From: a virus
Taxonomy: Duplodnaviria > Heunggongvirae > Uroviricota > Caudoviricetes
Length of the DNA stretch: 38,772 nucleotides
Direction: 5' to 3' (one strand)
IMG/VR virus record: IMGVR_UViG_2681813004_000022
In this document: positions 3,419 to 38,772 of the stretch, in pieces
How the letters are laid out: every line of letters begins with the position of its first letter
Numbering within the stretch: the first letter of the stretch is position 1
Notes under the pieces: model-generated
What the model saw: the letters and a program-made list of their open reading frames with translations, nothing else
What the model was told of the DNA's origin: nothing
The model's database searches: none
Translations under genes and position numbers: made by a program

Positions 3419-3485
3419 CCAACTAATGAAATTAATGGCGTAAACCCGCCGGGCATCCCTTTATCTAAATTCAGGAGAATTGCTT

Positions 3486-22928: not shown

Positions 22929-23526
22929 TCTGCTGCCACCGGGTTCAACACCACTGGAGCGCCGACTGGCGCAAACCTGCAGCGGGATTTCTGATCTGCA
23001 GGTGCCGCTTCGTGACTTGTGGAATCCGGCAACCTGTCCGGTCAGTTTCCTGCCTTATCTCGCCTGGGCGTTCTCTGTGGATCGCTGGGACGAGGGCTGG
23101 ACAGAAAGCGTCAAGCGCCAGGTGGTGAAGGATGCTTTTTATATTCATCAGCATAAAGGGACCACCAGTGCCGTGCGGCGGGTGGTGGAGCCGTTCGGCT
23201 TTCTGATCCGCATTATTGAGTGGTGGCAGACCGGAGAGGCAGCGGGCACGTTTCGCCTAGATATCGGCGTGCAGGACCAGGGCATCACTGAAGATACCTA
23301 TCTGGAACTTGAGCGACTGATAAGCGATGCCAAACCATGTAGCCGCCACATGATCGGCATGTCCATCAATCTGCAGACCAGCGGCCCGCATTGGGTGGGA
23401 GCCGCCAGCTATCTTGGCGAAGAAATCACGATCTATCCGTATATCAACGAAACGATTATTTCCGGTGGCACCGCGCATGAAGGCGGGGCGGTCCATGTTA
23501 TTGACACAATGAGAGTGAATCCATGA
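22921..23526 (+). CDS. I: Baseplate protein I
   Basis: 201 aa, synteny. Confidence 0.8.
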
Positions 23527-24923
23527 GCACAAAATTTTATACCCTGCTGACGGATATTGGCGCGGCGAAACTTGCCAGCGCCGCCGCGCTCGGTGTGCCG
23601 CTAAAAATTACCCATATGGCGGTGGGCGATGGCGGCGGAGTATTGCCAACGCCGGACGCAAAGCAGACGGCACTGGTAAATGAGAAACGCCGGGCTGCGC
23701 TGAATATGCTTTATATCGACCCGCAGAACAGCAGCCAGATTATTGCTGAACAGGTGATCCCTGAAAACGAGGGCGGTTGGTGGATACGTGAAGTGGGCCT
23801 GTTTGATGAGTCCGGGGCATTGATTGCCGTGGGCAACTGCCCGGAAAGCTATAAGCCGCAACTGGCTGAAGGCAGCGGGCGCACCCAGACCGTGCGCATG
23901 GTGCTGATTACCAGCAGTACGGACAATATCGCCCTGAAAATCGACCCTGCTGTAGTGCTGGCAACCCGTAAATACGTGGATGATAAAGTCCTGGAATTAA
24001 AGCTGTATGTGGATGACCAGATGAGAAACCACATTGCCGCACAAGATCCTCATACCCAGTATGCGCAGAAACATAATCCGACATTTACCGGAGAACCAAA
24101 AGCGCCGACGCCTGCAGCAGGAAATAACACCACTCGGATTGCGACCACAGAGTTTGTTCAGGCCGCTATTACTGCTCTGATTAACGGTGCGCCAGCCACG
24201 CTGGACACACTGAAAGAAATTGCCGCAGCCATTAACAATGACCCGAAATTCAGTACCACTATTAATAATGCGCTGGCACTGAAAGCGCCGCTGTCGAGTC
24301 CGGCACTCACCGGAACGCCAACAGCACCTACTGCGGCACAGTCGGTCAACAATACACAGATTGCCACCACGGCATTTGTGAAATCGGCGATTGCGGCAAT
24401 GGTGGGTTCTGCACCTGCGGCACTGGATACACTGAACGAACTGGCGGCGGCACTGGGGAATGATCCGAACTTTGCCACGACAATGCTTAATGCGCTGGCA
24501 GGTAAACAACCGCTGGACAATACGCTGACTCATTTGAGTGGAAAGGATGTAGCAGGTCTTCTCGCATACCTTGGTTTGGGAGAAGCGGCTAAAAGGAATG
24601 TAGGGACAGGGGCGAATCAGATACCTGATATGGGTAGCTTCACGCTTTCTGTTTCAGGTACTGGATATCAAAAATTACCATCAGGTTTTATTCTTCAGTG
24701 GGGCTCAATCGGCGCACCAGGCATTGCACAGGATGTAGTAACCCATTTCCCGATTGCATTTCCAAACAGATGTCTGCGTGTTTTGGTCTCACAAGACTAC
24801 ACACCAGATAGCGGGGCTGTTGGTTATATTGCCTGTGCAGGTTTTAGTCCCGATCCGGTTAAATTTATATCCAGAGCCAGTACTCCTGGCCTCGGCGCTT
24901 CATTTTTAGCGTTAGGCTGTTAA
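23523..24923 (+). CDS. H: Tail fibre protein H (constant N-terminal part plus currently expressed variable C-terminus)
   Basis: 466 aa; repeated xTxAxxAxxAxxTTxFVxxAI-type segments; contains an invertase crossover site at 24559-24584. Confidence 0.85.
24559..24584. repeat. 26-bp hix/gix-like invertase crossover site (left)
   Basis: TTCTCGCATACC-TT-GGTTTGGGAGAA, an imperfect palindrome (half-sites 10/12 matching); 15-bp core TTGGTTTGGGAGAAG repeated inverted at 27533-27547. Confidence 0.5.
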
Positions 24924-24944: not shown

Positions 24945-25385
24945 ATGAATTACATATATTCCGCGACTACAAACTCTTTCTATCCGCTGGAGATGAAAGA
25001 GGATTACACTCAAGCTGACTCATGGCCAGATGATGCTGTTGAAGTTGATGAGCAAGTGTATATTGAGTTTTCCGGATTACCGCCGAAAGGAAAAATCCGT
25101 ATCGCTGGAGAAAATGGTTTTCCTGCATGGTCTGAAATTCCACCACCAACACATGAGGAACAGATTGCTGCAGCCGAACTGGAAAAGCAGCAACTGATTA
25201 ATCAGGCCAACGATTATATGAACAGTAAACAATGGCCTGGTAAAGCGGCTATTGGTCGTCTGAAAGGTGAGGAACTGGCGCAATATAATTTGTGGCTGGA
25301 TTATCTGGACGCACTGGAACTGGTCGATACTTCTGGTGCGCCAGATATTGAATGGCCTACGCCTCCGGCAGTTCAGGCCAGATGA
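24945..25385 (+). CDS. G: Tail fibre assembly chaperone (P2 gpG / Mu U-like)
   Basis: 146 aa with conserved C-terminal motif YNLWLDYLDALELVDTSGAPDIEWP. Confidence 0.8.
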   Translation: MNYIYSATTNSFYPLEMKEDYTQADSWPDDAVEVDEQVYIEFSGLPPKGKIRIAGENGFPAWSEIPPPTHEEQIAAAELEKQQLINQANDYMNSKQWPGKAAIGRLKGEELAQYNLWLDYLDALELVDTSGAPDIEWPTPPAVQAR

Positions 25386-25959
25386 CATCCGGCGCGGTGC
25401 TGGTATCAGTTGCCGTCACCGCGTCAATGTAATCCAGCGCAGCGTTAAGTCGGGCGGTTTCTGCCTGCGTCAGATTCCGTCCGGCCTGCAATTTCAGCTG
25501 AATCAGACTAATGGAAGCCATTGCAGTATCAATCAGTGACTGACGCTGTGCTTCTGCCGCGCCTACTGCGGCGCTATGCTGTGCCTCAGTATCTGTTACC
25601 CATTTCTCACCATCCCATTCATCGTATGGCGTTAACGGGGCGATAGTGGTTGTATTTTCAGGATAATCACCCGGAGCTGTGATTTCTTTCGATTCTCTCG
25701 TTTCGGTGTTATAGACGATTTCACCGCGATGGTCTGGTACATATTCCCATGAGTTAAAATCTGCAGAGCGGCAGATTGCATAACCAGCTTTGTAGGTGCC
25801 TGGAGCATCTAAACAGGAATATGCCGGAATGCCGACACCAACAGCAAGATATTCAGTTGAAGCTGAAATATACTCCCGACTCATGACGTCAAAGTTATAA
25901 ACAGTAATTTCTCCTGCCATAGTGGCAATTAATTCACTGTTTAATTCTGCGTTATTCAT
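25357..25959 (-). CDS. Alternate tail fibre assembly chaperone (U'-like)
   Basis: 200 aa, C-terminal LDYIDAVTATDTSTAPDVIWPELP motif; convergent with and overlapping G by about 29 bp. Confidence 0.75.
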   Translation of the reverse strand: MNNAELNSELIATMAGEITVYNFDVMSREYISASTEYLAVGVGIPAYSCLDAPGTYKAGYAICRSADFNSWEYVPDHRGEIVYNTETRESKEITAPGDYPENTTTIAPLTPYDEWDGEKWVTDTEAQHSAAVGAAEAQRQSLIDTAMASISLIQLKLQAGRNLTQAETARLNAALDYIDAVTATDTSTAPDVIWPELPEA

Positions 25960-26233
25960 TATGCAGCCCTCACAATATAGTTAAAAGCGACATTTCGTGG
26001 GCGTGTTTCATTCGCACCTGCAGGTTTAGTCGTTGCCGCAACAACACCACCCTCTGTAATAGCCGGGTTGGGAATTGGGTAATTATCGAAGTCAATGGCC
26101 GGAGACAGGGGCGTGATTTGTTTTAAAATCGTGGTGCCTGAAAAACTTCCCAGAGTCTGGTCGTTAGTTCGTGAAGTCCAGATTCCCCAATAGTGGTTAT
26201 GACTGACAATCGCACCGTCCTGAAGCGTTAATA

Positions 26234-26241
26234 ATCCCCTT
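26234..26241. repeat. 8-bp target-site duplication ATCCCCTT (left copy)
   Basis: Identical 8-mer directly abuts the outer IS26 inverted repeats at 26234-26241 and 27329-27336. Confidence 0.7.
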
Positions 26242-27061
26242 GGCACTGTTGCAAAGTTAGCGATGAGGCAGCCTTTTGTCTTATTCAAAGGCCTTACATT
26301 TCAAAAACTCTGCTTACCAGGCGCATTTCGCCCAGGGGATCACCATAATAAAATGCTGAGGCCTGGCCTTTGCGTAGTGCACGCATCACCTCAATACCTT
26401 TGATGGTGGCGTAAGCCGTCTTCATGGATTTAAATCCCAGCGTGGCGCCGATTATCCGTTTCAGTTTGCCATGATCGCATTCAATCACGTTGTTCCGGTA
26501 CTTAATCTGTCGGTGTTCAACGTCAGACGGGCACCGGCCTTCGCGTTTGAGCAGAGCAAGCGCGCGACCATAGGCGGGCGCTTTATCCGTGTTGATGAAT
26601 CGCGGGATCTGCCACTTCTTCACGTTGTTGAGGATTTTACCCAGAAACCGGTATGCAGCTTTGCTGTTACGACGGGAGGAGAGATAAAAATCGACAGTGC
26701 GGCCCCGGCTGTCGACGGCCCGGTACAGATACGCCCAGCGGCCATTGACCTTCACGTAGGTTTCATCCATGTGCCACGGGCAAAGATCGGAAGGGTTACG
26801 CCAGTACCAGCGCAGCCGTTTTTCCATTTCAGGCGCATAACGCTGAACCCAGCGGTAAATCGTGGAGTGATCGACATTCACTCCGCGTTCAGCCAGCATC
26901 TCCTGCAGCTCACGGTAACTGATGCCGTATTTGCAGTACCAGCGTACGGCCCACAGAATGATGTCACGCTGAAAATGCCGGCCTTTGAATGGGTTCATGT
27001 GCAGCTCCATCAGCAAAAGGGGATGATAAGTTTATCACCACCGACTATTTGCAACAGTGCC
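26242..27061 (-). mobile_element. IS26 (IS6 family), complete 820-bp copy
   Basis: 14-bp terminal inverted repeats GGCACTGTTGCAAA at 26242-26255 and (reverse complement) 27048-27061; 820 bp; encodes the 234-aa Tnp26 sequence I recognise. Confidence 0.9.
26294..26998 (-). CDS. tnpA: IS26 transposase Tnp26
   Basis: 234 aa starting MNPFKGRHFQRDIILWAVRWYCKYGISYRELQEM..., DDE transposase of IS26. Confidence 0.9.
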   Translation of the reverse strand: MNPFKGRHFQRDIILWAVRWYCKYGISYRELQEMLAERGVNVDHSTIYRWVQRYAPEMEKRLRWYWRNPSDLCPWHMDETYVKVNGRWAYLYRAVDSRGRTVDFYLSSRRNSKAAYRFLGKILNNVKKWQIPRFINTDKAPAYGRALALLKREGRCPSDVEHRQIKYRNNVIECDHGKLKRIIGATLGFKSMKTAYATIKGIEVMRALRKGQASAFYYGDPLGEMRLVSRVFEM

Positions 27062-27328
27062 GTTACGCCAGTACCAGCGCAGCCGTTTTTCCATTTCAGG
27101 CGCATAACGCTGAACCCAGCGGTAAATCGTGGAGTGATCGACATTCACTCCGCGTTCAGCCAGCATCTCCTGCAGCTCACGGTAACTGATGCCGTATTTG
27201 CAGTACCAGCGTACGGCCCACAGAATGATGTCACGCTGAAAATGCCGGCCTTTGAATGGGTTCATGTGCAGCTCCATCAGCAAAAGGGGATGATAAGTTT
27301 ATCACCACCGACTATTTGCAACAGTGCC
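27062..27328 (-). mobile_element. Partial IS26 copy (267 bp, tnp-proximal end with terminal IR), tandem to the complete copy
   Basis: Sequence equals 26795-27061 of the complete copy and ends in the same terminal IR at 27315-27328; encodes only the first about 67 aa of Tnp26. Confidence 0.8.
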
Positions 27329-27336
27329 ATCCCCTT
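27329..27336. repeat. 8-bp target-site duplication ATCCCCTT (right copy)
   Basis: Matches 26234-26241. Confidence 0.7.
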
Positions 27337-27533
27337 CCGTTATCCACTCCACGTCCGTCATCCCAGCCACGAATAAACTCACCACGTAAATCAGGCAATT
27401 TATTTGTCGGATAAGCCTTTGCCAGTTCCGGGTATTCTTCAGCAGAAAAAGCGGCACCGTTGCATTTCAGCCAGCCTGTTGGCGGAGTGGCTGAAGGCCA
27501 CGGAACAGGCACCCCAACCGGTAATGCAGAGCC

Positions 27534-27559
27534 TTCTCCCAAACCAACGTTTAAGAAAA
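27534..27559. repeat. hix/gix-like invertase crossover site (right, inverted)
   Basis: TTCTCCCAAACC-AA-CGTTTAAGAAAA; shares the inverted 15-bp core with the left site; 55 bp upstream of the invertase gene. Confidence 0.5.
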
Positions 27560-27614
27560 TGCAGAGGTAACGGCTAACTGGCATCATCCCCGGTATTTAT
27601 TCAGGGGATTGATC

Positions 27615-28181
27615 ATGCTTATTGGCTATGTACGCGTGTCAACAAATGACCAGAACACCGATTTGCAACGTAATGCACTGAACTGCGCGGGATGTGAGCG
27701 GATTTTTGAGGACAAAATCAGTGGCACTAAGTCCGAAAGACCGGGGCTGAAAAAACTGCTCAGGACACTATCGGCAGGAGACACTCTGGTTGTCTGGAAG
27801 CTGGACAGGTTAGGGCGCAGTATGCGGCATCTTGTTACGCTGATAGAAGAGTTGCGCCAGCGTGGTGTGAATTTCAGAAGCCTGACTGACAGTATTGATA
27901 CCAGTACCCCAATGGGCCGTTTCTTTTTTCATGTCATGGGTGCCCTGGCTGAAATGGAACGCGAACTGATAGTTGAACGTACCAGGGCAGGGCTGGCTGC
28001 AGCTCGTGCCAAAGGCAGAGTAGGTGGACGCCGTCCTAAGTTGACCACCGAACAGTGGGCACAGATTGGGCGTTTACTCGAGGCCGGAGAATCAAGACAG
28101 CGTATTGCACTGATTTTTGATGTAGGCGTTTCTACCATTTATAGAAAATTTCCGGCAAATAAGATCAATGAATCCCCCTGA
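27615..28181 (+). CDS. Serine DNA invertase (Pin/Gin/Hin/Cin family)
   Basis: N-terminus MLIGYVRVSTNDQNTDLQRNAL... with catalytic Ser in the VRVST context, and C-terminal HTH; closely resembles e14 Pin as I recall it. Confidence 0.9.
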   Translation: MLIGYVRVSTNDQNTDLQRNALNCAGCERIFEDKISGTKSERPGLKKLLRTLSAGDTLVVWKLDRLGRSMRHLVTLIEELRQRGVNFRSLTDSIDTSTPMGRFFFHVMGALAEMERELIVERTRAGLAAARAKGRVGGRRPKLTTEQWAQIGRLLEAGESRQRIALIFDVGVSTIYRKFPANKINESP

Positions 28182-28229
28182 ATCAGCATTATGTTGATTA
28201 TCCCTGCAAGCAGACAAATACCGTTATTT

Positions 28230-28247
28230 TGTGTGAATAACGACACA
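28230..28247. promoter_or_regulatory. Candidate late-promoter activator site (TGT-N12-ACA) upstream of FI
   Basis: TGTGTGAATAACGACACA centred about 85 bp upstream of the FI start, the same spacing as the O-side dyad. Confidence 0.35.
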
Positions 28248-28323
28248 ACTGCGCTTAGCTGTTTGTCAGGCACAATCACTTCAACATAGGGCGAAGCCTA
28301 ATCCAATCAGGAGGTTCGCCACT

Positions 28324-29496
28324 ATGGCTCAGGATTACCACCACGGGGTGCGCGTTGTTGAAGTCAACGAAGGCACCCGATCTATTACCACGGTGAGCAC
28401 CGCCATCGTGGGTATGGTCTGCACGGGCGATGATGCCGATGCAAAAATGTTTCCTCTTAATAAACCCGTGCTGATCACTGATGTGCTGACTGCCAGCGGT
28501 AAAGCGGGTGAGTCCGGTACTCTGGCCCGTTCGCTGGATGCCATCGCTGACCAGGCAAAACCCGTGACCATTGTTGTGCGTGTGCCGCAGGGTGAAACGG
28601 AAGACGAAACCACGACCAATATCATCGGCGCAGTGACTGCTGAAGGTAAAAAAACAGGTATGAAAGCCCTGTTATCTGCCCAGTCACAGCTCGGCGTTAA
28701 ACCGCGCATTCTCGGCGTGCCAGGCCACGACACCAAGGCGGTAGCTACTGAGTTGCTGAGCGTGGCGCAAAGCCTGCGTGGATTTGCTTACCTGTCAGCG
28801 TATGGCTGCAAGACAGTGCAGGAGGCGATCACTTACCGCGAAAACTTCAGCCAGCGCGAAGGGATGCTGATCTGGCCTGACTTTACTGGCTGGGACACGG
28901 TGCTGAATGCCGAAGCAACGGCATATGCCACCGCCCGTGCGCTTGGTCTGCGCGCCAAAATTGACGAGCAGACCGGATGGCACAAAAGCCTGTCCAACGT
29001 GGGCGTGAACGGTGTCACCGGAATTTCTGCAGATGTGTTCTGGGATCTGCAGGACCCGGCAACCGATGCAGGTCTGCTGAACCAGAACGACGTCACCACG
29101 CTTGTGCGTAAAGACGGTTTCCGCTTCTGGGGTTCCCGCTGCCTGAGTGATGACCCGCTCTTTGCCTTCGAAAACTACACCCGCACGGCGCAGGTGCTGA
29201 TGGACACGATGGCAGAAGCACACATGTGGGCGGTGGATAAACCGCTTAACCCGTCGCTGGCCCGCGACATTATCGAAGGTATCCGCGCCAAAATGCGCAG
29301 CCTGGTCAGTCAGGGCTATCTCATTGGTGGTGATTGCTGGCTGGATGAGTCGGTGAACGACAAAGACACGCTGAAAGCCGGAAAACTCACCATCGACTAC
29401 GACTACACGCCAGTGCCGCCACTTGAAAACCTGATGCTGCGTCAGCGCATCACCGATCAGTACCTGGTGAATTTCGCCAGCCAGGTCAGCGCGTAA
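28324..29496 (+). CDS. FI: Tail sheath protein FI
   Basis: 390 aa (P2 FI about 396), AGGAGG RBS, followed by the tube gene. Confidence 0.9.
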
Positions 29497-29505
29497 GGGG
29501 ACAAC

Positions 29506-30021
29506 ATGGCTTTACCACGCAAATTAAAACACCTGAACCTGTTTAACGACGGGAACAACTGGCAGGGGATCGTTGAGTCGCTGACGCTGCCGAAATTTAC
29601 CCGCAAATATGAGAAGTATCGCGGCGGCGGAATGCCGGGTGCGGTGGATGTGGATCTGGGGCTTGATGACAGTGCGCTGGACACAGAATTTTCCATTGGT
29701 GGTACTGAATTGCTGCTGTTTAAACAGATGGGTAAAGCCACGGTGGATGGCATCCAGCTGCGCTTTACCGGCTCTATTCAGCGTGACGATACCGGGGAAG
29801 TGCAGGCCGTGGAGCTTGTCGTGCGTGGACGTCACAAAGAAGTGGATTCCGGCGAGTGGAAGACGGGCGAAAGCAACACCACCAAAGTGACCAGTACCAA
29901 CAGCTACGCGAAGCTGACCATCAATGGTGAGGTGCTCTATGAAGTGGACCTTATCAACATGGTGGAAATTGTGGACGGTGTGGACCTGATGGAAGCGCAC
30001 CGCAACGCCCTCGGCCTCTGA
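29506..30021 (+). CDS. FII: Tail tube protein FII
   Basis: 171 aa (P2 FII about 172). Confidence 0.9.
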   Translation: MALPRKLKHLNLFNDGNNWQGIVESLTLPKFTRKYEKYRGGGMPGAVDVDLGLDDSALDTEFSIGGTELLLFKQMGKATVDGIQLRFTGSIQRDDTGEVQAVELVVRGRHKEVDSGEWKTGESNTTKVTSTNSYAKLTINGEVLYEVDLINMVEIVDGVDLMEAHRNALGL

Positions 30022-30075
30022 TATATCTGAACGGCGCGGGATACCGCGCCAGAACCCAATTGACAGGACAGCAAA

Positions 30076-30378
30076 ATGAGCGATAAGCAGACTGAAAAGA
30101 CCATTCAACTGGATACCCCCATCAAGCGCGGTAAAACAGAAATCACCGAAATTGTGCTGCGTAAACCGCAGTCCGGTGCGCTGCGCGGTACACGCCTGCA
30201 GGCCATTATGGATATGGATGTAAACGCGATGATGATCGTGATCCCCCGCATCTCCAGTCCGGCACTGACTGCACAGGAAATTGCAGAGATGGACCCGGCA
30301 GATCTCACTGCCATGTCGGTTGAGGTTGTCACTTTTTTGTTGAAGAAGTCGGTGCTTGCCGGTTTACCGACAGCCTGA
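30076..30378 (+). CDS. E: Tail assembly chaperone E
   Basis: 100 aa ORF upstream of the tape measure gene; contains a slippery heptamer. Confidence 0.8.
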   Translation: MSDKQTEKTIQLDTPIKRGKTEITEIVLRKPQSGALRGTRLQAIMDMDVNAMMIVIPRISSPALTAQEIAEMDPADLTAMSVEVVTFLLKKSVLAGLPTA

Positions 30379-30512
30379 CGGTTGACGATCTGGTGGCAGA
30401 TATCGCCACCATTTTTCACTGGCCGCCATCCGTTACTGACGTTATGCCGCTGACCGAAGTGCTGGAATGGCGGTATAAAGCGATTCAGAGAAGCGGGGCC
30501 AACGATGAGTGA
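30076..30512 (+). CDS. E': Tail assembly chaperone E' (E+E' fusion by programmed -1 frameshift)
   Basis: Slippery T_TTT_TTG at 30333-30339; the -1 frame stays open to a TGA at 30510-30512 overlapping the T start, giving about 145 aa (P2 E' about 142). Confidence 0.55.
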
Positions 30513-33500
30513 TAACAACCTGCGTCTGCAGGTCATTCTTAATGCGGTTGACAAGCTCACCCGCCCATTTCGATCTGCGCAGGCCAGTTCAAGAGAACTG
30601 GCTGCTGCTGTCAAAAAATCCCGCGATGCAATAAAGCAGCTTGATCAGGCCGGGAGCAGTCTGGACAGCTTCCGAAAGCTGCAGGCAGAAAATCAGAAAT
30701 TAGGCGACAGGCTGAACTATGCCCGCCAGCGTGCAAATTTGCTCAGTCAGGAACTGGGAGCGATGGGGCCGCCTTCGCAACGTCAGGTTGTTGCTCTGGG
30801 CCGTCAACGGCTGGCTGTTCAGCGCCTGGAAGAACGCCAGAAAAAGCTGCAGCAGCAGACGGCGCTTGTGCGTGCTGAACTGTACCGGGCGGGAATTTCT
30901 GCGAAAGACGATGCGGGTGCAACTGCCCGTTTAGCCCGTGAAACATCACGTTATAACCAGGAACTTTCGAAACAGGAGGCGCGGCTGAAGCGACTGGGGG
31001 AAGCTCAGCGCAGGATGAATGCAGCGCGTGCCAGTTATGCCCGTTCGCTGGAGGTGCGTGATCGTATTGCAGGTGCCGGAGCCACCACCACGGCTGCAGG
31101 GCTGGCAATGGGCGCACCAGTGATGGCGGCAGTAAAAAGCTATACCAGCATGGAAGATGCCATGAAAGGTGTGGCAAAGCAGGTCAATGGTCTGCGTGAC
31201 GATAATGGCAACCGCACTGCACGTTTTTATGAAATGCAGGATGCCATCAAGGCTGCCAGCGAACAGTTGCCGATGGAAAACGGTGCGGTGGATTTCGCTG
31301 CACTGGTTGAAGGTGGTGCGCGCATGAACGTCGCAAACCCTGACGACAGTTGGGAAGATCAGAAACGTGACCTGCTGGCCTTCGCCAGTACGGCAGCAAA
31401 GGCGGCAACAGCCTTTGAGCTGCCAGCGGATGAACTGTCAGAAAGTCTGGGGAAAATCGCCCAGCTCTACAAAATCCCCACCCGCAATATTGAACAGCTC
31501 GGTGATGCGCTGAACTATCTGGATGATAACGCCATGTCGAAAGGGGCAGACATCATTGATGTGATGCAACGTCTGGGCGGTGTGGCTGACCGTCTGGATT
31601 ATCGTAAAGCGGCGGCGCTGGGTTCCACCTTCCTGACACTGGGCGCTGCGCCAGAGGTTGCAGCCAGTGCAGCAAACGCGATGGTGCGTGAATTGTCCAT
31701 TGCCACCATGCAAAGCAAAAGTTTCTTTGAAGGGATGAATCTGCTGAAACTCAATCCTGAAGTGATTGAAAAGCAGATGACGAAGGATGCGATGGGAACC
31801 ATCCAGCGCGTGCTGGAGAAGGTAAACGCGCTGCCGCAGGACAAGCGCCTGTCTGCCATGACTATGTTGTTTGGTAAAGAGTTTGGCGATGACGCGGCGA
31901 AACTGGCAAACAACCTGCCGGAACTGCAGCGTCAGTTAAAACTGACAGCGGGCAATGATGCGCTCGGCTCCATGCAGAAAGAATCCGACATTAACAAGGA
32001 TTCACTTTCTGCGCAGTGGTTGCTGGTCAAAACCGGAGCGCAGAACACCTTCAGCAGCCTGGGCGAAACGCTGCGCCAGCCGCTGATGGATATTCTGTAC
32101 ACGGTGAAAAGCGTCACGGGGGCGTTGCGTCGCTGGGTGGAAGCTAACCCGGAACTGACAGGCACACTGATGAAAGCATCGGCTGTTGTGGCTGCGGTTA
32201 CCGTCGGCCTCGGCACCTTAGCGGTGGCGCTGGCTGCAGTGCTGGGGCCGCTGGCAGTGATCCGTCTGGGATTCTCTGTGCTGGGTATCAAAACGTTATC
32301 TTCCGTTACGGCAGCAGTAACTCGAACCAGCAGCGCGTTGTCCTGGCTGGCTGGCGCACCACTGGCACTGCTGCGACGCGGGCTTGCTTCATCGGGCAAC
32401 GCTGCAGGTTTACTTACTGCGCCGTTGTCGTCTTTGCGCCGCACGGCATCACTGACGGGAAATGTCCTGAAAACTGTAGCAGGTGCGCCGGTTGCACTTT
32501 TGCGGTCTGGATTATCCGGTTTACGTGCTGTTGCTGTGATGTTTATGAATCCTCTGGCGGTACTGCGCGGTGGACTGGCCGCCGCAGGTACGGTGCTGCG
32601 AGTACTGGCATCTGGTCCACTGGCGATGCTGCGCGTTGCCCTGTATGCCATATCTGGTCTGTTAGGTGCTCTGCTCAGTCCGATAGGTCTTGTGGTTACT
32701 GCACTGGCGGGCGTGGCGCTGGTTGTCTGGAAATACTGGCAACCCATCACCGCATTTCTCGGTGGCGTGGTGGAAGGATTCAAAGCGGCGGCAGGTCCCA
32801 TCAGTGCAGCGTTCGAACCGCTTAAGCCCGTGTTCCAGTGGATTGGCGACAAAGTGCAGGCGCTGTGGGGCTGGTTTACTGATCTGCTGACGCCCGTTAA
32901 GTCGACCTCTGCCGAACTGCAGAGCGCAGCGGCAATGGGGCGGCGATTCGGGGAGGCACTGGCGGAAGGGCTGAATATGGTCATGCATCCGCTGGACTCC
33001 CTGAAATCCGGCGTTTCCTGGTTGCTGGAGAAGCTCGGCATTGTCAGTAAAGAGGCCGCAAAGGCAAAACTGCCGGAAAGCGTGACGCGTCAGCAACCTG
33101 CGACGGTGAATGCAGACGGTAAAGTGATGATGCCATCGGGTGGTTTTCCATCATGGGGATATGGCTTTGCGGGGATGTATGACAGCGGCGGGTATATCCC
33201 GCGCGGGCAGTTTGGCATCGTCGGTGAAAACGGGCCGGAAATTGTTAACGGCCCGGCAAATGTGACCAGCCGGAGAAATACAGCTGCACTGGCTGCCGTT
33301 GTTGCCGGAATGATGGGCGTTGCTGCCGCGCCAGCAGAGCTTCCACCGTTGCACCCTTTGGCACTTCCCGCGAAAGGTGGAGAAGCAATTGTGAGTCGCG
33401 CAGCCACTGTGCCGCTCGTTCAACGGATTGAGGCACCGACGCAGATCATCATTCAGACGCAGCCAGGACAAAGTGCGCAGGATATTGCGCGGGAGGTGGC

Positions 33501-33582
33501 ACGCCAGCTTGATGAACGTGAACGCAGGCTGAAGGCAAAAGCCAGGAGTAACTACAGCGATCAGGGGGGATACGACGCATGA
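30505..33582 (+). CDS. T: Tail tape measure protein T
   Basis: 1025 aa, coiled-coil N-terminus and Ala/Gly-rich hydrophobic middle; position after E/E'. Confidence 0.85.
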   Translation: MSDNNLRLQVILNAVDKLTRPFRSAQASSRELAAAVKKSRDAIKQLDQAGSSLDSFRKLQAENQKLGDRLNYARQRANLLSQELGAMGPPSQRQVVALGRQRLAVQRLEERQKKLQQQTALVRAELYRAGISAKDDAGATARLARETSRYNQELSKQEARLKRLGEAQRRMNAARASYARSLEVRDRIAGAGATTTAAGLAMGAPVMAAVKSYTSMEDAMKGVAKQVNGLRDDNGNRTARFYEMQDAIKAASEQLPMENGAVDFAALVEGGARMNVANPDDSWEDQKRDLLAFASTAAKAATAFELPADELSESLGKIAQLYKIPTRNIEQLGDALNYLDDNAMSKGADIIDVMQRLGGVADRLDYRKAAALGSTFLTLGAAPEVAASAANAMVRELSIATMQSKSFFEGMNLLKLNPEVIEKQMTKDAMGTIQRVLEKVNALPQDKRLSAMTMLFGKEFGDDAAKLANNLPELQRQLKLTAGNDALGSMQKESDINKDSLSAQWLLVKTGAQNTFSSLGETLRQPLMDILYTVKSVTGALRRWVEANPELTGTLMKASAVVAAVTVGLGTLAVALAAVLGPLAVIRLGFSVLGIKTLSSVTAAVTRTSSALSWLAGAPLALLRRGLASSGNAAGLLTAPLSSLRRTASLTGNVLKTVAGAPVALLRSGLSGLRAVAVMFMNPLAVLRGGLAAAGTVLRVLASGPLAMLRVALYAISGLLGALLSPIGLVVTALAGVALVVWKYWQPITAFLGGVVEGFKAAAGPISAAFEPLKPVFQWIGDKVQALWGWFTDLLTPVKSTSAELQSAAAMGRRFGEALAEGLNMVMHPLDSLKSGVSWLLEKLGIVSKEAAKAKLPESVTRQQPATVNADGKVMMPSGGFPSWGYGFAGMYDSGGYIPRGQFGIVGENGPEIVNGPANVTSRRNTAALAAVVAGMMGVAAAPAELPPLHPLALPAKGGEAIVSRAATVPLVQRIEAPTQIIIQTQPGQSAQDIAREVARQLDERERRLKAKARSNYSDQGGYDA

Positions 33583-34064
33583 TGATGGTGCTGGGATTGT
33601 ACGTGTTTATGCTGCGCACCGTTCCGTATCAGGAACTGCAGTATCAACGCAGCTGGCGACATGCGGCAAACAGTCGGGTAAACCGACGTCCGTCCACGCA
33701 GTTTCTGGGACCGGAAAACGACATGCTGACGCTTTCCGGTGTTCTTATGCCGGAAATAACAGGCGGCAGGCTGTCGTTGCTGGCACTGGAGCAGATGGCA
33801 GAACAGGGGAAAGCATGGCCCCTGATTGAAGGCAGCGGCACGATTTACGGCATGTATGTGATTGAGGGACTGAATCAGACTAAAACGGAGTTTTTCCGCG
33901 ACGGTATGCCGCGCCGGATTGAGTTCACCCTGTCGCTCAAACGAGTGGATGAATCCCTGTCCGATATGTTCGGTGATCTCAGTGCGCAACTGAATAATCT
34001 GCAGGACACGGCAACGTCTGCCTTAAGCGATATCAGTAAAACGGTGGGAGGGCTGCTGTCGTGA
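33579..34064 (+). CDS. U: Tail protein U
   Basis: 161 aa (P2 U about 159). Confidence 0.8.
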   Translation: MMMVLGLYVFMLRTVPYQELQYQRSWRHAANSRVNRRPSTQFLGPENDMLTLSGVLMPEITGGRLSLLALEQMAEQGKAWPLIEGSGTIYGMYVIEGLNQTKTEFFRDGMPRRIEFTLSLKRVDESLSDMFGDLSAQLNNLQDTATSALSDISKTVGGLLS

Positions 34065-35161
34065 ATTTCAGCTCTGAACTGCTTAACAAAGGCAACAAAA
34101 CTCCCGCATTCAGCATCAGTATTGAGGGCAGGGATATCACCACTGTGCTGGATAACCGCCTGATGAGTTTGACGCTGACGGATAACCGGGGCTTTGAAGC
34201 GGACCAGCTTGATCTGGAGCTGGATGACGCTGACGGAAAAATCGTGCTGCCGCGCCGTGGTGCGGTTATTACGCTGGCGCTGGGCTGGAAGGGGCAGCCG
34301 CTTTTCCCGAAAGGGGCATTCACAGTGGACGAGATTGAACACACTGGCGCACCGGACCGCCTGACTATCCGGGCGCGAAGTGCTGATTTTCGGGAAACGC
34401 TGAATACCCGCCGTGAAAAATCGTGGCATAAGACCACCGTCGGGGAAGTGGTGAAGGAAATAGCCGCGCGGCACAAGCTGAAGATGGCACTGGGTAAAGA
34501 CCTGTCGGATAAGCCCGTGGAGCATATAGACCAGACTAATGAGAGTGACGGCAGTTTTCTGATGCGGTTGGCGCGACAGTACGGTGCCATCGCGTCGGTG
34601 AAAAATGGCAATCTGTTATTCATCCGGCAGGGGCAGGGCAAAAGCGCCACTGGTAAACCTCTGCCAGTGATCACTCTCACACGCAAGGACGGCGACAGTC
34701 ACCGATTTACCCTGGCAGATCGCGGAGCCTACACGGGCGTAATTGCCAGCTGGTTGCATACCCGCGAACCTGCGAAGAAAGAAAGCACCACGGTGAAGCG
34801 TAAGCGCAGAACTAAGAAGCAGAAGAAAGAGCCAGAAGCGAAGCAGGGCGATTACCTGGTGGGTACGGATGAAAACGTGCTGGTACTTAATCGCACTTAT
34901 GCCAACCGGAGCAACGCTGAACGGGCAGCGAAAATGCAGTGGGAACGCCTGCAACGCGGCGTTGCGTCATTCTCGCTACAACTGGCGGAAGGGCGGGCAG
35001 ATCTCTACACAGAAATGCCTGTGAAGGTCAGTGGCTTTAAACAGCCGATAGATGATGCGGAATGGACCATTACGACTCTGACGCATACCGTCAGCCCGGA
35101 TAACGGTTTTACGACCAGTCTGGAGCTTGAAGTGAGGATTGATGATTTCGAAATGGAATGA
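34061..35161 (+). CDS. D: Tail protein D
   Basis: 366 aa, last late structural gene before ogr. Confidence 0.85.
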   Translation: MNFSSELLNKGNKTPAFSISIEGRDITTVLDNRLMSLTLTDNRGFEADQLDLELDDADGKIVLPRRGAVITLALGWKGQPLFPKGAFTVDEIEHTGAPDRLTIRARSADFRETLNTRREKSWHKTTVGEVVKEIAARHKLKMALGKDLSDKPVEHIDQTNESDGSFLMRLARQYGAIASVKNGNLLFIRQGQGKSATGKPLPVITLTRKDGDSHRFTLADRGAYTGVIASWLHTREPAKKESTTVKRKRRTKKQKKEPEAKQGDYLVGTDENVLVLNRTYANRSNAERAAKMQWERLQRGVASFSLQLAEGRADLYTEMPVKVSGFKQPIDDAEWTITTLTHTVSPDNGFTTSLELEVRIDDFEME

Positions 35162-35251
35162 TTCTTCGCAATGGAGAACTTTTAAGTTTGCAAAATGGAA
35201 TAATGCGGTATCATTATTGTGAATTTAGCAAAAATGGGGAGAGCTCGAAAA

Positions 35252-35470
35252 ATGATGATTTGCCCACTGTGTGGAAGTGCCGCCCATACTCGCAGCAGTT
35301 TTCAGGTATCTTCATTGACCAAAGAGCGTTACAACCAGTGCCAGAACATTAACTGCAGCCATACTTTTGTTACCCATGAAACTTTTGTTCGTTCGATTGC
35401 AACGCCAAAAGAGTCAAATCCGGTTCAGCCGCATCCAATGAAATCAGGACAGGTGGCGCTCTCTCTTTGA
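35252..35470 (+). CDS. ogr: Ogr/Delta-family zinc-finger late transcription activator
   Basis: 72 aa from ATG 35252 (GGAGA RBS); CPLCGSAAH...TKERYNQCQNINCSHTF matches the Ogr C2C2 finger pattern. Confidence 0.8.
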   Translation: MMICPLCGSAAHTRSSFQVSSLTKERYNQCQNINCSHTFVTHETFVRSIATPKESNPVQPHPMKSGQVALSL

Positions 35471-35550
35471 CGCTGCCGCCATTTTGTCGCCATCGTTAAA
35501 GAATAGTGCTTCTAACATCATGATTTTAAACAGCTTAAATTTCAGACAAC

Positions 35551-35593
35551 AAAAAACCCATCAACCTTGAACCGAAATGGCGGGGTTGATGGG
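35551..35593 (-). terminator. Intrinsic terminator on the minus strand (probably the ybjL terminator)
   Basis: 10-bp stems CCCATCAACC/GGTTGATGGG followed on the minus strand by TTTTTT; about 110 nt downstream of the ybjL stop. Confidence 0.4.
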
Positions 35594-35705
35594 CTCCACA
35601 AAATGGGGACATCAAAGAAAAGCAGTGGCATTAATTAAGACTGATGCCCTGCGGAAAAGTTCTGCGGTTGTGCAAAAAAATTTCATTTTCAGGGCAACTT
35701 CAGTT

Positions 35706-37391
35706 TTATCCTAATCCTGGCCATACCATGACGATGATTGTCCCTGCCAGCGTCAGCAGGACGTTGGCGATTGCGTAGGTGCCCGCATAGCCCAGCGCAG
35801 GGATGTTACTGCGAGCTGTATCACTGATGATCTCCATTGCCGGCGCGCAGGTGCGTGCGCCCATCATTGCGCCGAACAACAGTGCGCGGTTCATTCGCAA
35901 TACATAAGCACCGAACAAGAAACAGATAACCACGGGCACAAGACTGACAATTAATCCGGCAATCAACATCTGACCGCCAATCGCGCCCAGGCCGTTATTA
36001 ATACCGCTACCGGCGCTCAGACCAACGCCTGCCATAAACACCATCAAGCCGAACTCTTTCACCATGCTTAATGCACCTTGCGGAATGTAACCGAAGGTCG
36101 GGTGGTTAGCACGCATAAAGCCCAGCATAATTCCGGCGAATAACAACCCGGCAGCGTTCCCCATGCCGAAACTGAATGTGCTGAACTGGAAGGTGATCAT
36201 CCCGATCATCAGCCCAATAACAAAGAAGGCGCAAAATGCCAGCAGGTCAGTGACCTGGCTGTGAATCGAGATAAAGCCGATGCGATCGGCGATGGTTTTT
36301 ACGCGACGGGCATCACCGCTGACTTGTAAAACGTCACCTTTGTTAAGCACGACGTTGTCATCTATCGGCATCTCAATCTGGCTACGAATGACGCGGTTAA
36401 GGAAGCAACCGTGATCGGTCAACTTCAGTTGTGCGAGACGTTTACCTACAGCGTTATGGTTTTTAACGACCACTTCTTCAGTGACGATACGCATGTCGAG
36501 AAGGTCACGATCGAAAACTTCTTTACCGTTACGGAAGCTGGGATCGAGTCGGGCATGGGCGTCGGGATAGCCTACCAACGCTATTTCATCGCCCATTTGT
36601 AGCACGGCATCACCGTCTGGATTTGCCAGAATCCCGTTACGTCGAATACGTTCAATGTAGCAGCCGGTTTGTCGATAAATACCCAGTTCACGCAGATTTT
36701 TGCCGTCGGTCCAGGCCACCAGCTCCGGGCCGACGCGATAGGCGCGGATCACCGGTAAATAAACCTTACGGTTGGCATCAGTGTCCAGGCCACGTTCGCG
36801 GGCGATTTGCTGGGCGCTGGTCTGTAAGTCCTGATGCTGCAATTTCGGCAAGTAACGCGCACCAACAATCAAACTCACCAGACCGATTAAATAGGTTAAG
36901 GCATACCCGAGGCTCAGATTATCCAGTGCCAGTGAGAGCTGCCTGCTTTCCATGCCGGAATGACGCAGTGTATCGCCAGCACCGACCAGAACCGGTGTCG
37001 ACGTCATAGAGCCTGCTAACATACCGGCCGTCAGGCCAATATCCCAGCCAAACAGCTTACCTAACCCTAAGGCGATCACCAGCGCACTGCCAACCATCAC
37101 CAGTGCTAACATTAGGTAATTTTTCCCATCGCGAAAAAAAATGGAAAAAAAGTTCGGTCCGGCTTCGACCCCGACGCAGAAAATAAACAGCATAAAGCCA
37201 AGATTAAGCGCATCGGTGTTAATGCTGAAATGTTGTTGGCCTAATAACAGCGATACGACTAAAACGCCAATGGAATTACCCAGTTGGATCGAACCAAGTC
37301 GTAACTTTCCGAGACATAGCCCAAGCGCGAGGACCACAAATAATAACAGAATGTAATTCCCATTTAACAATTCGGCGACGTTTATATTCAC
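35706..37391 (-). CDS. ybjL: Putative transport protein YbjL (AAE-family transporter with TrkA-C domains)
   Basis: 561 aa, N-terminus [29 protein letters not shown] as I recall for E. coli YbjL; neighbours ybjM/grxA/ybjC support the assignment. Confidence 0.85.
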
Positions 37392-37660
37392 GGAGGCTAA
37401 CTTCTTGTTTACTAGTAAGCTGTTGAAAGAAATGCTAATTTACGATAATGTTTTTTACCAGAATTCAGGGCGCAGATTCATTCAGCGCACCTAAACGATA
37501 GTAAAGTAACAATATATTTTACTAGTGTAATCACATTAGGTATCAACGGCTATATGAATTGCGTTGGCCTATATTAGCATGGAATGCGAAGCGGCTTTAT
37601 CTTACTGAACGCCACACTGGCGAAAAATGTGTTCGATAGACGCAGTGTCAGGAGGAACGA

Positions 37661-38038
37661 GTGAAACATAAACAACGTTGGGCGGGGGCAATCTGCTGTT
37701 TTGTCCTCTTCATTGTGGTGTGCCTTTTTCTGGCGACGCACATGAAAGGCGCTTTTCGGGCTGCCGGGCATCCTGAAATCGGCTTGCTATTTTTCATTCT
37801 TCCTGGAGCAGTCGCCAGCTTCTTTTCACAGCGTAGAGAAGTCCTGAAACCTCTATTTGGCGCAATGCTGGCGGCACCCTGTTCAATGCTCATTATGCGG
37901 CTGTTTTTTTCACCGACGCGCTCATTCTGGCAAGAGCTGGCATGGTTACTAAGCGCGGTGTTCTGGTGTGCGCTGGGGGCACTGTGTTTCTTATTTATCA
38001 GTAGTTTGTTTAAACCACAGCACAGAAAAAATCAGTAA
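37661..38038 (+). CDS. ybjM: Inner membrane protein YbjM
   Basis: 125-aa hydrophobic protein in the conserved ybjL-ybjM-grxA context. Confidence 0.8.
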   Translation: MKHKQRWAGAICCFVLFIVVCLFLATHMKGAFRAAGHPEIGLLFFILPGAVASFFSQRREVLKPLFGAMLAAPCSMLIMRLFFSPTRSFWQELAWLLSAVFWCALGALCFLFISSLFKPQHRKNQ

Positions 38039-38058
38039 AGCCCTCAACGCGAGGGCTT
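38038..38058. terminator. Bidirectional intrinsic terminator between ybjM and grxA
   Basis: AAGCCCTC-AACGC-GAGGGCTT hairpin between convergent genes. Confidence 0.45.
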
Positions 38059-38067
38059 GTCAGACGA

Positions 38068-38325
38068 TCAGGCGTCCAGATTTTCTTTCACCCATGCAGC
38101 AAAATCGGTATAGCCGCCGATATGTTGCTGATCGACAAAAATCTGCGGCACGGTTTCTACGGGTTTACCTGCCTTTTGTTGTAGATCTTCTTTAGTGATC
38201 CCTTCCGCACGAATATCTACATACTGATACTGAAAATCATCGCGTTCATTGCTCAATTTCTCAGCCAGATCTTTTGCACGCACACAGTAAGGGCAACCCG
38301 AACGACCAAAAATAACGGTTTGCAT
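38068..38325 (-). CDS. grxA: Glutaredoxin 1
   Basis: 85 aa starting MQTVIFGRSGCPYCVRAKDLAEKL with the CPYC active site. Confidence 0.9.
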   Translation of the reverse strand: MQTVIFGRSGCPYCVRAKDLAEKLSNERDDFQYQYVDIRAEGITKEDLQQKAGKPVETVPQIFVDQQHIGGYTDFAAWVKENLDA

Positions 38326-38484
38326 TATTTCTCTCCTCATAGATTTATGCCTGTAATGATCACGCTAAAATGTATTCGCTGAAAGTAGGTTTAACCTGTT
38401 GCATTAATTGCTAAAAGCTATAACTGTTAAACACAATACAGTGAAAAGTTTTAGACTGAAGGCTCACTTTGCAGAGGGAAGCGT

Positions 38485-38772
38485 ATGCGCGCGATCGGTA
38501 AATTGCCTAAAGGCGTGTTGATACTGGAATTTATCGGAATGATGCTACTGGCGGTGGCGCTGCTGTCGGTAAGCGACTCCCTGTCGCTGCCTGAGCCATT
38601 TTCTCGGCCAGAAGTGCAGATTCTGATGATTTTTCTCGGTGTTTTGCTCATGCTTCCCGCTGCGGTGGTGGTTATTCTTCAGGTGGCAAAACGTCTTGCC
38701 CCACAGCTGATGAACCGTCCACCGCAATATTCACGTTCAGAAAGAGAAAAAGATAATGACGCCAACCATTGA
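38485..38772 (+). CDS. ybjC: DUF1418-family membrane protein YbjC
   Basis: 95 aa, two hydrophobic helices, conserved position downstream of grxA; stop at window end. Confidence 0.75.
   Translation: MRAIGKLPKGVLILEFIGMMLLAVALLSVSDSLSLPEPFSRPEVQILMIFLGVLLMLPAAVVVILQVAKRLAPQLMNRPPQYSRSEREKDNDANH

What the first reader, a model, noticed from the sequence alone, without database searches (positions are those of the whole stretch)
26234..27336. IS26 insertion with 8-bp TSD disrupts the alternate tail-fibre gene, followed by a tandem 267-bp partial IS26
A complete 820-bp IS26 with intact 14-bp IRs and a full Tnp26 ORF is inserted in the alternate fibre variable segment. Removing the IS block and one copy of the flanking ATCCCCTT restores a continuous reading frame, so the insertion is clean and probably recent. 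A second, partial copy of the tnp-proximal end (267 bp including the terminal IR) is fused head-to-tail, with the TSD flanking the whole compound structure. This would make one inversion state yield a truncated fibre, and IS26 in a prophage tail gene is notable because IS26 usually marks plasmid or resistance regions. The tandem partial repeat could be a real rearrangement or an assembly artefact.
Basis: seen in the sequence. Interest (0 to 1): 0.6.

Follow-up and report, generated by a model that had tools for sequence, protein, structure and literature searches.

The report
IS26 with duplicated end in prophage
A common resistance-associated jumping gene (IS26), carrying an extra 267-bp copy of its own left end, has landed cleanly in the currently unused alternative tail-fibre gene of an otherwise intact P2-like E. 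coli prophage. It is real and tidy but an ordinary kind of event.

Summary
An 820-bp IS26 lies at 26242-27061, with tnp26 on the minus strand. An exact 267-bp tandem copy of its transposase-proximal end lies at 27062-27328. The 8-bp repeat ATCCCCTT flanks the whole 1,087-bp block. Deleting the block plus one repeat reproduces the empty site of a near-identical prophage in E. coli HH194M.

The target is the silent alternative C-terminal fibre segment inside a Gin/Pin-type invertible region. After in-silico inversion the fibre is 427 aa instead of 513 aa.

The partial copy is unlikely to be an assembly artefact. Its junction falls exactly at the IS terminus with no microhomology. The same junction occurs in a K. 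pneumoniae plasmid and in further K. pneumoniae contigs. Analogous left-end::IS26 composites (313 and 330 bp) occur in complete plasmids.

I think the 1,087-bp block most likely arrived as a pre-formed unit, as IS15 does, using the outer inverted repeat. Formation in place by Tnp26 attacking a sister or its own copy is nearly as likely.

IS26 in or beside prophage fibre-inversion modules also occurs in other E. coli chromosomes.

Verdict: a new member of a known kind, low to moderate interest.

The parts
26234..26241 (.). Left copy of the 8-bp target-site duplication ATCCCCTT
   Evidence: A single copy is present at the empty site in HH194M.
26242..27061 (-). Complete IS26, 820 bp. The right inverted repeat (IRR) is at 26242-26255 and the inner left inverted repeat (IRL) at 27048-27061.
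   Evidence: 100% identical to annotated IS26 copies in L001 and L003.
26294..26998 (-). tnp26, encoding the 234-aa DDE transposase Tnp26; intact
   Evidence: Matches PF13610 DDE_Tnp_IS240 at E=2.5e-48.
27062..27328 (-). Partial IS26: positions 1-267 in the transposase sense, a 100% tandem copy of 26795-27061. The outer IRL is at 27315-27328.
27035..27265 (-). Truncated ORF of 76 aa: Tnp26 M1-N68 followed by GTVANSRW, read through into the inner IRL. It covers the whole TIR-binding domain (M1-P56).
   Evidence: called as a gene in the source contig. The domain boundary is from PMC8477213. There is no evidence that it is expressed.
27329..27336 (.). Right copy of the 8-bp target-site duplication ATCCCCTT
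27337..27587 (-). 5' part of the alternative (silent) fibre C-terminal segment, carrying the Phage Tail Collar domain
   Evidence: Matches PF07484 at E=1e-15.
25959..26233 (-). 3' part of the alternative fibre segment (last 91 codons together with the TSD), cut off by the insertion
   Evidence: Contiguous with the 5' part in HH194M (WP_171274451.1).
24559..24585 (.). Left crossover site of the invertible segment, inside the fibre gene
   Evidence: inverted repeat I1; 15 identical bases, TTGGTTTGGGAGAAG
27533..27559 (.). Right crossover site of the invertible segment
27615..28181 (+). Serine invertase of the Gin/Pin/Cin/Hin type, 188 aa; intact
   Evidence: Resolvase E=2.7e-53 plus HTH_7
23523..24923 (+). 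Tail-fibre gene in its present, intact orientation: 466 aa with a gp53-like C-terminus
24945..25385 (+). Tail-fibre assembly gene for the current orientation
   Evidence: Caudo_TAP
25357..25959 (-). Tail-fibre assembly gene for the alternative orientation; intact
   Evidence: Caudo_TAP

Best explanation
What it is. A real IS26 element with a duplicated left end sits in the silent alternative fibre tip of an invertible host-range switch. The structure in the transposase sense is IS26[1-267]::IS26[1-820], 1,087 bp in total. The host is an otherwise intact P2-like E. coli prophage in NCBI GCA_001447405.1, contig AOTC01000279.1.

How the inner junction formed. The transposase Tnp26 joined an IS26 left terminus to position 267 of another IS26. 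Either an adjacent deletion or an IS26-into-IS26 insertion followed by homologous recombination would give this result. This most plausibly happened in a multi-IS26 resistance plasmid.

How it got here (inferred). The three-ended composite then transposed as one unit, using the outer IRL and the IRR. The steps would be copy-in cointegrate formation with the chromosome, then RecA-dependent resolution. That leaves one copy flanked by the 8-bp duplication ATCCCCTT. IS15 (IS26 nested in IS26, 1,648 bp) behaves this way.

Consequences.
- In the present orientation the fibre gene is intact (466 aa).
- After invertase-mediated inversion the fibre would be 427 aa instead of 513 aa and would lack its distal 91 residues. 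One of the two host-range states is therefore dead.
- The 267-bp direct repeat can collapse to a plain IS26 by homologous recombination.

Shown versus inferred. The anatomy, the TSD, the empty site, the frame disruption and the independent occurrence of the junction are shown. The order of events and unit transposition are inferred.
For: Anatomy and TSD.

Empty site: an exact match in HH194M, and the insertion is the only structural difference over 38.8 kb.

Not slippage: the junction is exactly at the IS terminus with no microhomology.

Same structure elsewhere:
- The same 820+267 structure, with one SNP and different flanks, is in K. pneumoniae pKp_Goe_629-1.
- That group's genome series was assembled from PacBio long reads (PMC8066831).
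- The diagnostic 76-aa read-through protein, L15R variant, is on 3 further K. pneumoniae contigs.

Analogous composites:
- IS26[1-313]::IS26 occurs in 7 plasmids with at least 4 different flank pairs.
- IS26[1-330]::IS26 occurs in 6 plasmids.
- In E. coli complete genomes these composites are found almost only on plasmids.

Precedent: IS15 is IS26 nested in IS26, forms cointegrates like IS26 and makes an 8-bp duplication.

Fibre truncation and the Collar domain.
Against: - A TSD flanking the whole block is equally predicted if a plain IS26 inserted first and was then hit in place.
- At x=313 and x=330 the same nucleotide is joined to IS26 in both orientations in different plasmids. That suggests target hot spots inside IS26, so the shared x=267 junction in K. 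pneumoniae need not mean common descent.
- The window's partial copy is identical to its neighbour, whereas the K. pneumoniae one carries a SNP.
- Composite donors are rare: 1 of 72,556 plasmids and 0 of 20,395 E. coli records.
- None of the other composites examined has a TSD.
- No read data were available for the draft source assembly.
Confidence: 0.5

Rival explanations
1. Formed in place. An ordinary 820-bp IS26 first inserted at ATCCCCTT. Later its left end, or that of the sister-chromatid copy, attacked position 260-267 of the resident IS26 by copy-in transposition. After dimer resolution one chromosome carries flank-IS26[1-267]-IS26[1-820]-flank with the original TSD preserved.
For: - On paper the product is identical to what is seen (inference from the Shapiro copy-in model).
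- There is evidence for preferred target positions inside IS26. The same x is used in both orientations at 313 and 330.
- The partial copy is 100% identical to the adjacent full copy.
- The draft contig runs straight through the IS (129.5 kb), which suggests there is no other IS26 copy in the genome.
Against: - It needs two rare events in a lineage so young that no other genome shares even the first one.
- A lone chromosomal IS26 has few partner copies, whereas all other composites found lie in multi-IS26 plasmid regions.
- It requires a coincidental hit at the very nucleotide used in K. pneumoniae.
Confidence: 0.3
2. Assembly artefact or misplacement. The prophage carries only a plain IS26. 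The 267-bp repeat was created or mis-threaded by the assembler, for example with the junction reads coming from another IS26 locus.
For: - The source is a draft assembly and no reads could be inspected.
- A common IS26 variant has a SNP at position 268. Also, 581 contigs carry a Tnp26 fragment ending exactly at residue 68, which is position 267. Assembly graphs can therefore break at this exact boundary.
Against: - Assemblers tend to collapse tandem repeats rather than create them (general knowledge of assembly methods, not tested here).
- A junction at the exact IS terminus is a transposase signature.
- The same junction is in a K. pneumoniae plasmid from a PacBio-sequenced series and in 3 other K. 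pneumoniae contigs.
- A 129.5-kb contig passing through the IS argues against several unresolved IS26 copies.
- There is no matching duplication at the other IS end.
Confidence: 0.08
3. A tandem duplication made by replication slippage or unequal homologous recombination, unrelated to transposase activity.
For: Tandem duplications of a few hundred bp do arise this way. A plasmid with two tandem 313-bp partial copies (L013) shows that such units can be amplified once they exist.
Against: - There is no microhomology at either boundary.
- One boundary coincides exactly with the IS terminus.
- The same junction occurs in another species.
Confidence: 0.02

Closest known systems
IS26 (IS6/IS26 family; synonyms IS15-delta, IS46, IS140)
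   Same: 820 bp, 14-bp perfect terminal inverted repeats, a 234-aa DDE transposase, and an 8-bp target duplication. The DNA is 100% identical to annotated IS26 copies.
   Different: It carries an extra 267-bp copy of its own left end, so the TSD-bounded element is 1,087 bp with three Tnp26-binding termini and a second, truncated tnp26 ORF.
IS15 (1,648 bp; IS15-delta-1 inserted in IS15-delta-2)
   Same: A composite made of IS26 sequence joined to IS26 sequence at an IS terminus. It is bounded by IS26 inverted repeats and reported to form cointegrates and generate an 8-bp duplication as a unit (PMC7986276, PMC6807381, PMC4196232).
   Different: Only the first 267 bp of the 'outer' copy are present and its right-hand part is missing. 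The predicted second junction of a full nested structure at this position was not found in plasmids or E. coli genomes.
IS26[1-313]::IS26 and IS26[1-330]::IS26 composites in resistance plasmids (unnamed; found here)
   Same: A left-end fragment fused head-to-tail to a complete IS26, with a read-through truncated Tnp26 ORF bearing the same IRL-encoded tails (GTVANSRW or GHCCK).
   Different: A different breakpoint (267). This one is chromosomal, in a prophage, and is the only one seen here that is flanked by a target-site duplication.
Gin/Cin/Pin/Hin-type invertible tail-fibre segments (Mu G, P1 C, e14 P)
   Same: An adjacent serine invertase, inverted crossover sites inside the fibre gene, and two alternative fibre tips each with its own assembly gene in opposite orientations.
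   Different: Here it sits in a P2-like prophage, and one of the two tips is insertionally inactivated.
IS26 insertion in the alternative fibre segment of another prophage (E. coli 40EC, NZ_CP070920.1)
   Same: A clean IS26 insertion with an 8-bp TSD (AGTTTTTC) in a silent fibre segment next to a pin-type invertase.
   Different: A plain 820-bp IS26, a different prophage type (Mu/e14-like baseplate genes) and a different target segment (gp53-like).

Membership tests
IS26 (IS6/IS26 family insertion sequence) | About 820 bp bounded by perfect 14-bp terminal inverted repeats GGCACTGTTGCAAA | tested here: met
   26242-27061, inverted repeats identical.
IS26 (IS6/IS26 family insertion sequence) | A single ORF for a DDE transposase with an N-terminal HTH (Tnp26, 234 aa) | tested here: met
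   The DNA is identical to copies annotated WP_001067855.1.
IS26 (IS6/IS26 family insertion sequence) | 8-bp target-site duplication | tested here: met
   ATCCCCTT on both sides of the 1,087-bp block, with a single copy at the empty site in HH194M.
IS26 (IS6/IS26 family insertion sequence) | Moves only by cointegrate formation (copy-in or targeted conservative) | not testable with these tools
   Needs a mating-out assay. Taken from the literature (PMC4196232, PMC8477213).
IS15-type nested IS26 composite | Two complete IS26 copies, one inserted in the other (1,648 bp = 2 x 820 + 8) | tested here: not met
   Only 267 bp of a second copy are present. The second junction expected for a full nested structure at this site is absent from plasmids and E. 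coli genomes.
IS15-type nested IS26 composite | The composite is bounded by IS26 inverted repeats and flanked as a whole by an 8-bp duplication | tested here: met
IS15-type nested IS26 composite | Transposes as a unit | not testable with these tools
   Inferred from the TSD position and from the same junction in K. pneumoniae. Formation in place predicts the same TSD.
Serine-invertase (Gin/Pin/Cin/Hin) invertible fibre segment | A small serine recombinase (Resolvase domain plus C-terminal HTH) adjacent to the segment | tested here: met
   Resolvase E=2.7e-53 and HTH_7 E=1.5e-15, at 27615-28181.
Serine-invertase (Gin/Pin/Cin/Hin) invertible fibre segment | Inverted crossover sites, one of them inside the fibre ORF, bounding two opposed fibre-tip and assembly gene sets | tested here: met
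   (27-nt inverted repeats with a 15-nt identical core). In-silico inversion gives an in-frame 513-aa fibre once the IS is removed.
Serine-invertase (Gin/Pin/Cin/Hin) invertible fibre segment | The segment is actually found in both orientations | not tested
   The window and HH194M are in the same orientation. Other relatives were not examined for orientation.
P2-like (Peduoviridae) prophage | P2-type gene order: integrase, CI/Cox region, replication gene A, portal, terminase, scaffold, P2-family capsid, lysis genes, baseplate V/W/J/I, fibre gene H, sheath, tube, tape measure, gene D, ogr | tested here: met
   Annotation of the collinear HH194M prophage, 99.8-99.98% identical. About 95% identity to deposited P2-like phages over 72-76% of the query.

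The most novel reading that the evidence does not exclude
Left-end-duplicated IS26 elements (IS26[1-x]::IS26 with x = 267, 313 or 330) may form a recurrent class.

- Origin: they would arise because Tnp26 preferentially attacks a few sites about 270-330 bp inside another (or its own) IS26.
- Mobility: they would remain mobile as three-ended units.
- Regulation: they would express a stand-alone Tnp26 DNA-binding domain (residues 1-68, 1-83 or 1-89). That domain would modulate transposition by competing for the terminal repeats, as InsA does for IS1 and OrfA does for IS3-family elements.

On this reading the prophage copy is the one natural example that preserves a target-site duplication around the whole unit.
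Probability: 0.1. Interest if true: 0.5.

Novelty: new member of a known kind. Interest (0 to 1): 0.25.

Why it matters
The significance is modest.

1. A recent, clean IS26 entry into an otherwise intact, probably inducible P2-like prophage has knocked out one of the two states of its host-range switch.
2. Tnp26 strongly prefers to integrate translocatable units next to an existing IS26 (PMC4196232). A resident IS26 is therefore a landing pad through which resistance genes could be recruited onto a packageable phage genome.
3. A TSD-flanked IS26 with a duplicated left end is a natural record of unusual end or target usage by Tnp26. Together with the 313-bp and 330-bp analogues found here, it points to a cheap database survey of IS26-into-IS26 junctions and a simple mating-out test.

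Tried and rejected
- Full nested precursor. I searched for the second junction expected if a complete IS26 were nested at position 260-267 (IS15-like). There were no hits in plasmids or E. coli genomes.
- The x=267 junction elsewhere. There were no hits in 5,426 complete E. coli genomes, GTDB species representatives, JGI metagenomes or IMG/VR. Only one plasmid carries it.
- Short-read fragments of the junction protein. Exact look-ups of the partial forms expected for k = 77, 99 and 127 were not in the 15-billion-protein collection.
- Sister strains with the same insertion. No record covers at least 80% of the 3.2-kb region. The flank-to-IS junction is absent from IMG/VR and metagenomes. The truncated fibre ORF is not on record as a called gene.
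- Literature searches for partial or truncated IS26 next to IS26, and for the source assembly accession, gave nothing specific.
- The consensus promoter scan found no sigma-70-like site in 26200-27650. Expression of the 76-aa ORF is therefore unsupported.
- Slippage was rejected as the origin because there is no microhomology and the boundary is at the IS terminus.

Full report
**1. Checking the observation**

- Positions 26242-27061 are an 820-bp element with perfect 14-bp terminal inverted repeats (GGCACTGTTGCAAA).
- Its DNA is 100% identical to IS26 copies annotated as 'IS6-like element IS26 family transposase' (WP_001067855.1) in E. coli 40EC and in K. pneumoniae pKp_Goe_629-1.
- The minus-strand ORF at 26294-26998 encodes the 234-aa Tnp26 and matches Pfam DDE_Tnp_IS240 at E=2.5e-48.
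- Positions 27062-27328 are a 100% identical tandem copy of 26795-27061. In IS26's own orientation this is positions 1-267, which includes the left inverted repeat (IRL).
- ATCCCCTT occurs at 26234-26241 and again at 27329-27336, so it brackets the whole 1,087-bp block.
- The repeat cannot be shifted. The bases just outside the two copies differ (G versus C on one side, A versus G on the other). The inner junction is therefore exactly the IS terminus joined to IS26 position 267, with no microhomology.

**2. Empty site and context**

The window is 100% identical to NCBI GCA_001447405.1 contig AOTC01000279.1, a 129.5-kb contig.

It is collinear with a P2-like prophage of E. coli HH194M that lies between rcdA and ybjL.
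- Window 1-26241 is 99.977% identical to HH194M (6 mismatches) and 27329-38772 is 99.816% identical (21 mismatches). There are no gaps in either stretch.
- The only structural difference over the whole window is the 1,095-bp insertion.
- Removing 26242-27336 gives an 80-bp stretch across the site that is found exactly in HH194M.
- The insertion is therefore clean and, given the near-identity of the relative, recent.
- No complete E. coli genome carries this insertion, with or without the extra 267 bp.
- The flank-to-IS junction is absent from IMG/VR and JGI metagenomes.

**3. What was hit**

The fibre gene (23523-24923, 466 aa; Phage_tail_fib N-terminus, gp53-like C-terminus) crosses a 27-nt site at 24559-24585. 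That site is repeated in inverted orientation at 27533-27559, with a 15-nt identical core.

Between the two sites lie:
- two opposed tail-fibre assembly genes (24945-25385 on the plus strand and 25357-25959 on the minus strand);
- on the minus strand, an alternative fibre tip carrying a Phage Tail Collar domain.

An intact serine invertase (Resolvase plus HTH_7) follows at 27615-28181. This is a Gin/Pin/Cin-type host-range switch.

In-silico inversion gives a 513-aa fibre once the IS block is removed. With the block present the fibre is 427 aa: 422 native residues plus WHCCK read from the IRL. In the assembled orientation the expressed fibre is intact and the IS lies in the silent copy. The insertion would therefore have cost nothing when it happened. 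It inactivates one of the two host-range states.

**4. Is the partial copy real?**

A 40-mer centred on the inner junction cannot match an ordinary IS26 by megablast, because any 28-base word in it spans the junction.
- It found nothing in 20,395 E. coli records.
- It found nothing in GTDB species representatives, JGI metagenomes or IMG/VR.
- It found one plasmid, K. pneumoniae pKp_Goe_629-1.

That plasmid has the same structure: a full IS26 followed by the 267-bp left-end copy. It has one SNP (L15R in the truncated ORF) and entirely different flanks, lying next to the aac(6')-Ib-cr/blaOXA-1/catB3 module. The group that deposited it assembles its Kp_Goe series from PacBio RSII reads (PMC8066831). 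Whether that applies to this particular isolate is an inference.

The partial copy encodes a diagnostic 76-aa protein, Tnp26 M1-N68 followed by GTVANSRW.
- The exact window version is on one contig only, the source.
- The L15R version is on three further K. pneumoniae contigs under four NCBI accessions.

In my judgement, a junction at the exact IS terminus that recurs in independent assemblies is a transposase product rather than an assembler product. I leave about 8% for misplacement because no reads could be inspected. One caveat supports that reserve. A common IS26 variant has a SNP at position 268, and 581 contigs carry a Tnp26 fragment ending exactly at residue 68. Assembly graphs can therefore break at this very boundary.

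**5. The wider class**

Other members of the same protein cluster end in tails encoded by the IRL. They are uniquely explained by IS26[1-313]::IS26 and IS26[1-330]::IS26 junctions.
- The 313 junction is in 7 plasmids from Klebsiella, Escherichia and Serratia, with at least four different pairs of flanks. One of them (OW849352.1) has two tandem 313-bp copies.
- The 330 junction is in 6 plasmids.
- In complete E. coli genomes, the direct-orientation (full-length) junction hits lie on plasmids apart from one chromosomal copy of the 330 junction.
- None of those examined has a target-site duplication.

Left-end::IS26 composites are thus a recurrent, if unnamed, by-product of IS26 activity in multi-IS26 regions.

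IS15 is the described precedent. It is one IS26 isoform inserted in another (1,648 bp), and it forms cointegrates and makes 8-bp duplications as IS26 does (PMC7986276, PMC6807381, PMC4196232).

**6. How the block arose**

Two routes give the observed product.

Route A, which I favour at about 0.5.
- The composite formed in a resistance plasmid.
- Either an IS26 deleted adjacent DNA up to position 267 of a directly oriented neighbour, or an IS26 inserted at 260-267 and the 561-bp direct repeats then recombined.
- The composite then moved as a unit by copy-in from its outer IRL and its IRR, and the cointegrate was resolved by homologous recombination.
- This accounts for the TSD around the whole block, the shared junction in K. 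pneumoniae, and the plasmid location of all other composites.

Route B, about 0.3.
- A plain IS26 inserted first.
- A sister-chromatid or self attack at 260-267 then produced the same structure with the original TSD retained.

Route B gains weight from one unexplained observation. At both 313 and 330 the same nucleotide is joined to IS26 in direct orientation in some plasmids and in inverted orientation in others. That suggests preferred target sites inside IS26, in which case identical junctions need not be related by descent. The two routes cannot be separated in silico with the data available.

**7. Possible function of the extra piece**

The truncated ORF (27035-27265) covers the whole Tnp26 DNA-binding region. 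M1-P56 alone binds the terminal repeats, although weakly (PMC8477213). It could in principle compete with full-length Tnp26. This is speculation, and a consensus promoter scan found nothing in the region.

The 267-bp direct repeats make the composite prone to collapse to a plain IS26.

**8. How unusual is IS26 here?**

Only 6 of 50,697 deposited phage records carry a full IS26. They are mostly P1-like phage-plasmids or fragment records, and none of them is among the top P2-like matches.

Chromosomal prophages are not exempt, however.
- E. coli 40EC has a plain IS26 with TSD AGTTTTTC in the alternative fibre segment of a different, pinE-linked prophage.
- TUM12357, TH9F11 and EC15 have IS26 truncating the invertase or the fibre of related modules.
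- IS26-mediated loss of the P1 C-segment has been published (PMC6906374).

**9. Verdict**

The finding is correct and well described. It is an ordinary IS26 insertion in an interesting place, with an uncommon but not unique left-end duplication. I class it as a new member of a known kind, with an interest score of about 0.25.

Noticed in passing
window 26100-26171: Four of the only six differences from the HH194M prophage in window 1-26241 cluster within 140 bp of the IS, at 26100, 26141, 26149 and 26171. Two are non-synonymous in the alternative fibre tip (G/E and S/T). This could be recombination in the receptor-binding tip or relaxed selection after inactivation.
   Followed up: partly
L018 2191-3340 and L019 2191-3340; 34-of-40-nt hits: IS26 positions 313 and 330 are each joined to a complete IS26 in direct orientation in some plasmids and in inverted orientation in others. 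This suggests target hot spots for IS26 inside IS26. No inverted partner was seen for position 267.
   Followed up: partly
L013 (OW849352.1) 1395-2840: A K. pneumoniae plasmid has two tandem 313-bp IS26 left-end copies followed by a full IS26. Such partial units can evidently be amplified, so the copy number in a short-read assembly may be underestimated.
   Followed up: no
protein P0004; L009 2438-3257: A 68-aa Tnp26 fragment (H8Y) on 581 contigs ends at N68, exactly the boundary of the window's junction. The H8Y IS26 variant differs from IS26 at positions 48, 85 and 268. These fragments are therefore probably assembly-graph breaks at the position-268 SNP. The coincidence with the 267 junction is unexplained.
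   Followed up: partly
L001 (E. coli 40EC, NZ_CP070920.1) 3001-3820: A plain IS26 flanked by the 8-bp duplication AGTTTTTC splits a gp53-like alternative fibre segment next to pinE in a different prophage. This is an independent case of IS26 hitting a fibre inversion module.
   Followed up: yes
window 35631-36078 and 37167-38301: 19 of the 21 differences from HH194M to the right of the IS lie in the chromosomal flank beyond ogr (ybjL to ybjC), not in the prophage. The prophage is more conserved between the two strains than the neighbouring chromosome.
   Followed up: no
window 25357-25385: The two opposed tail-fibre assembly genes overlap by 29 bp at their 3' ends. The same arrangement is annotated in all relatives inspected.
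   Followed up: no
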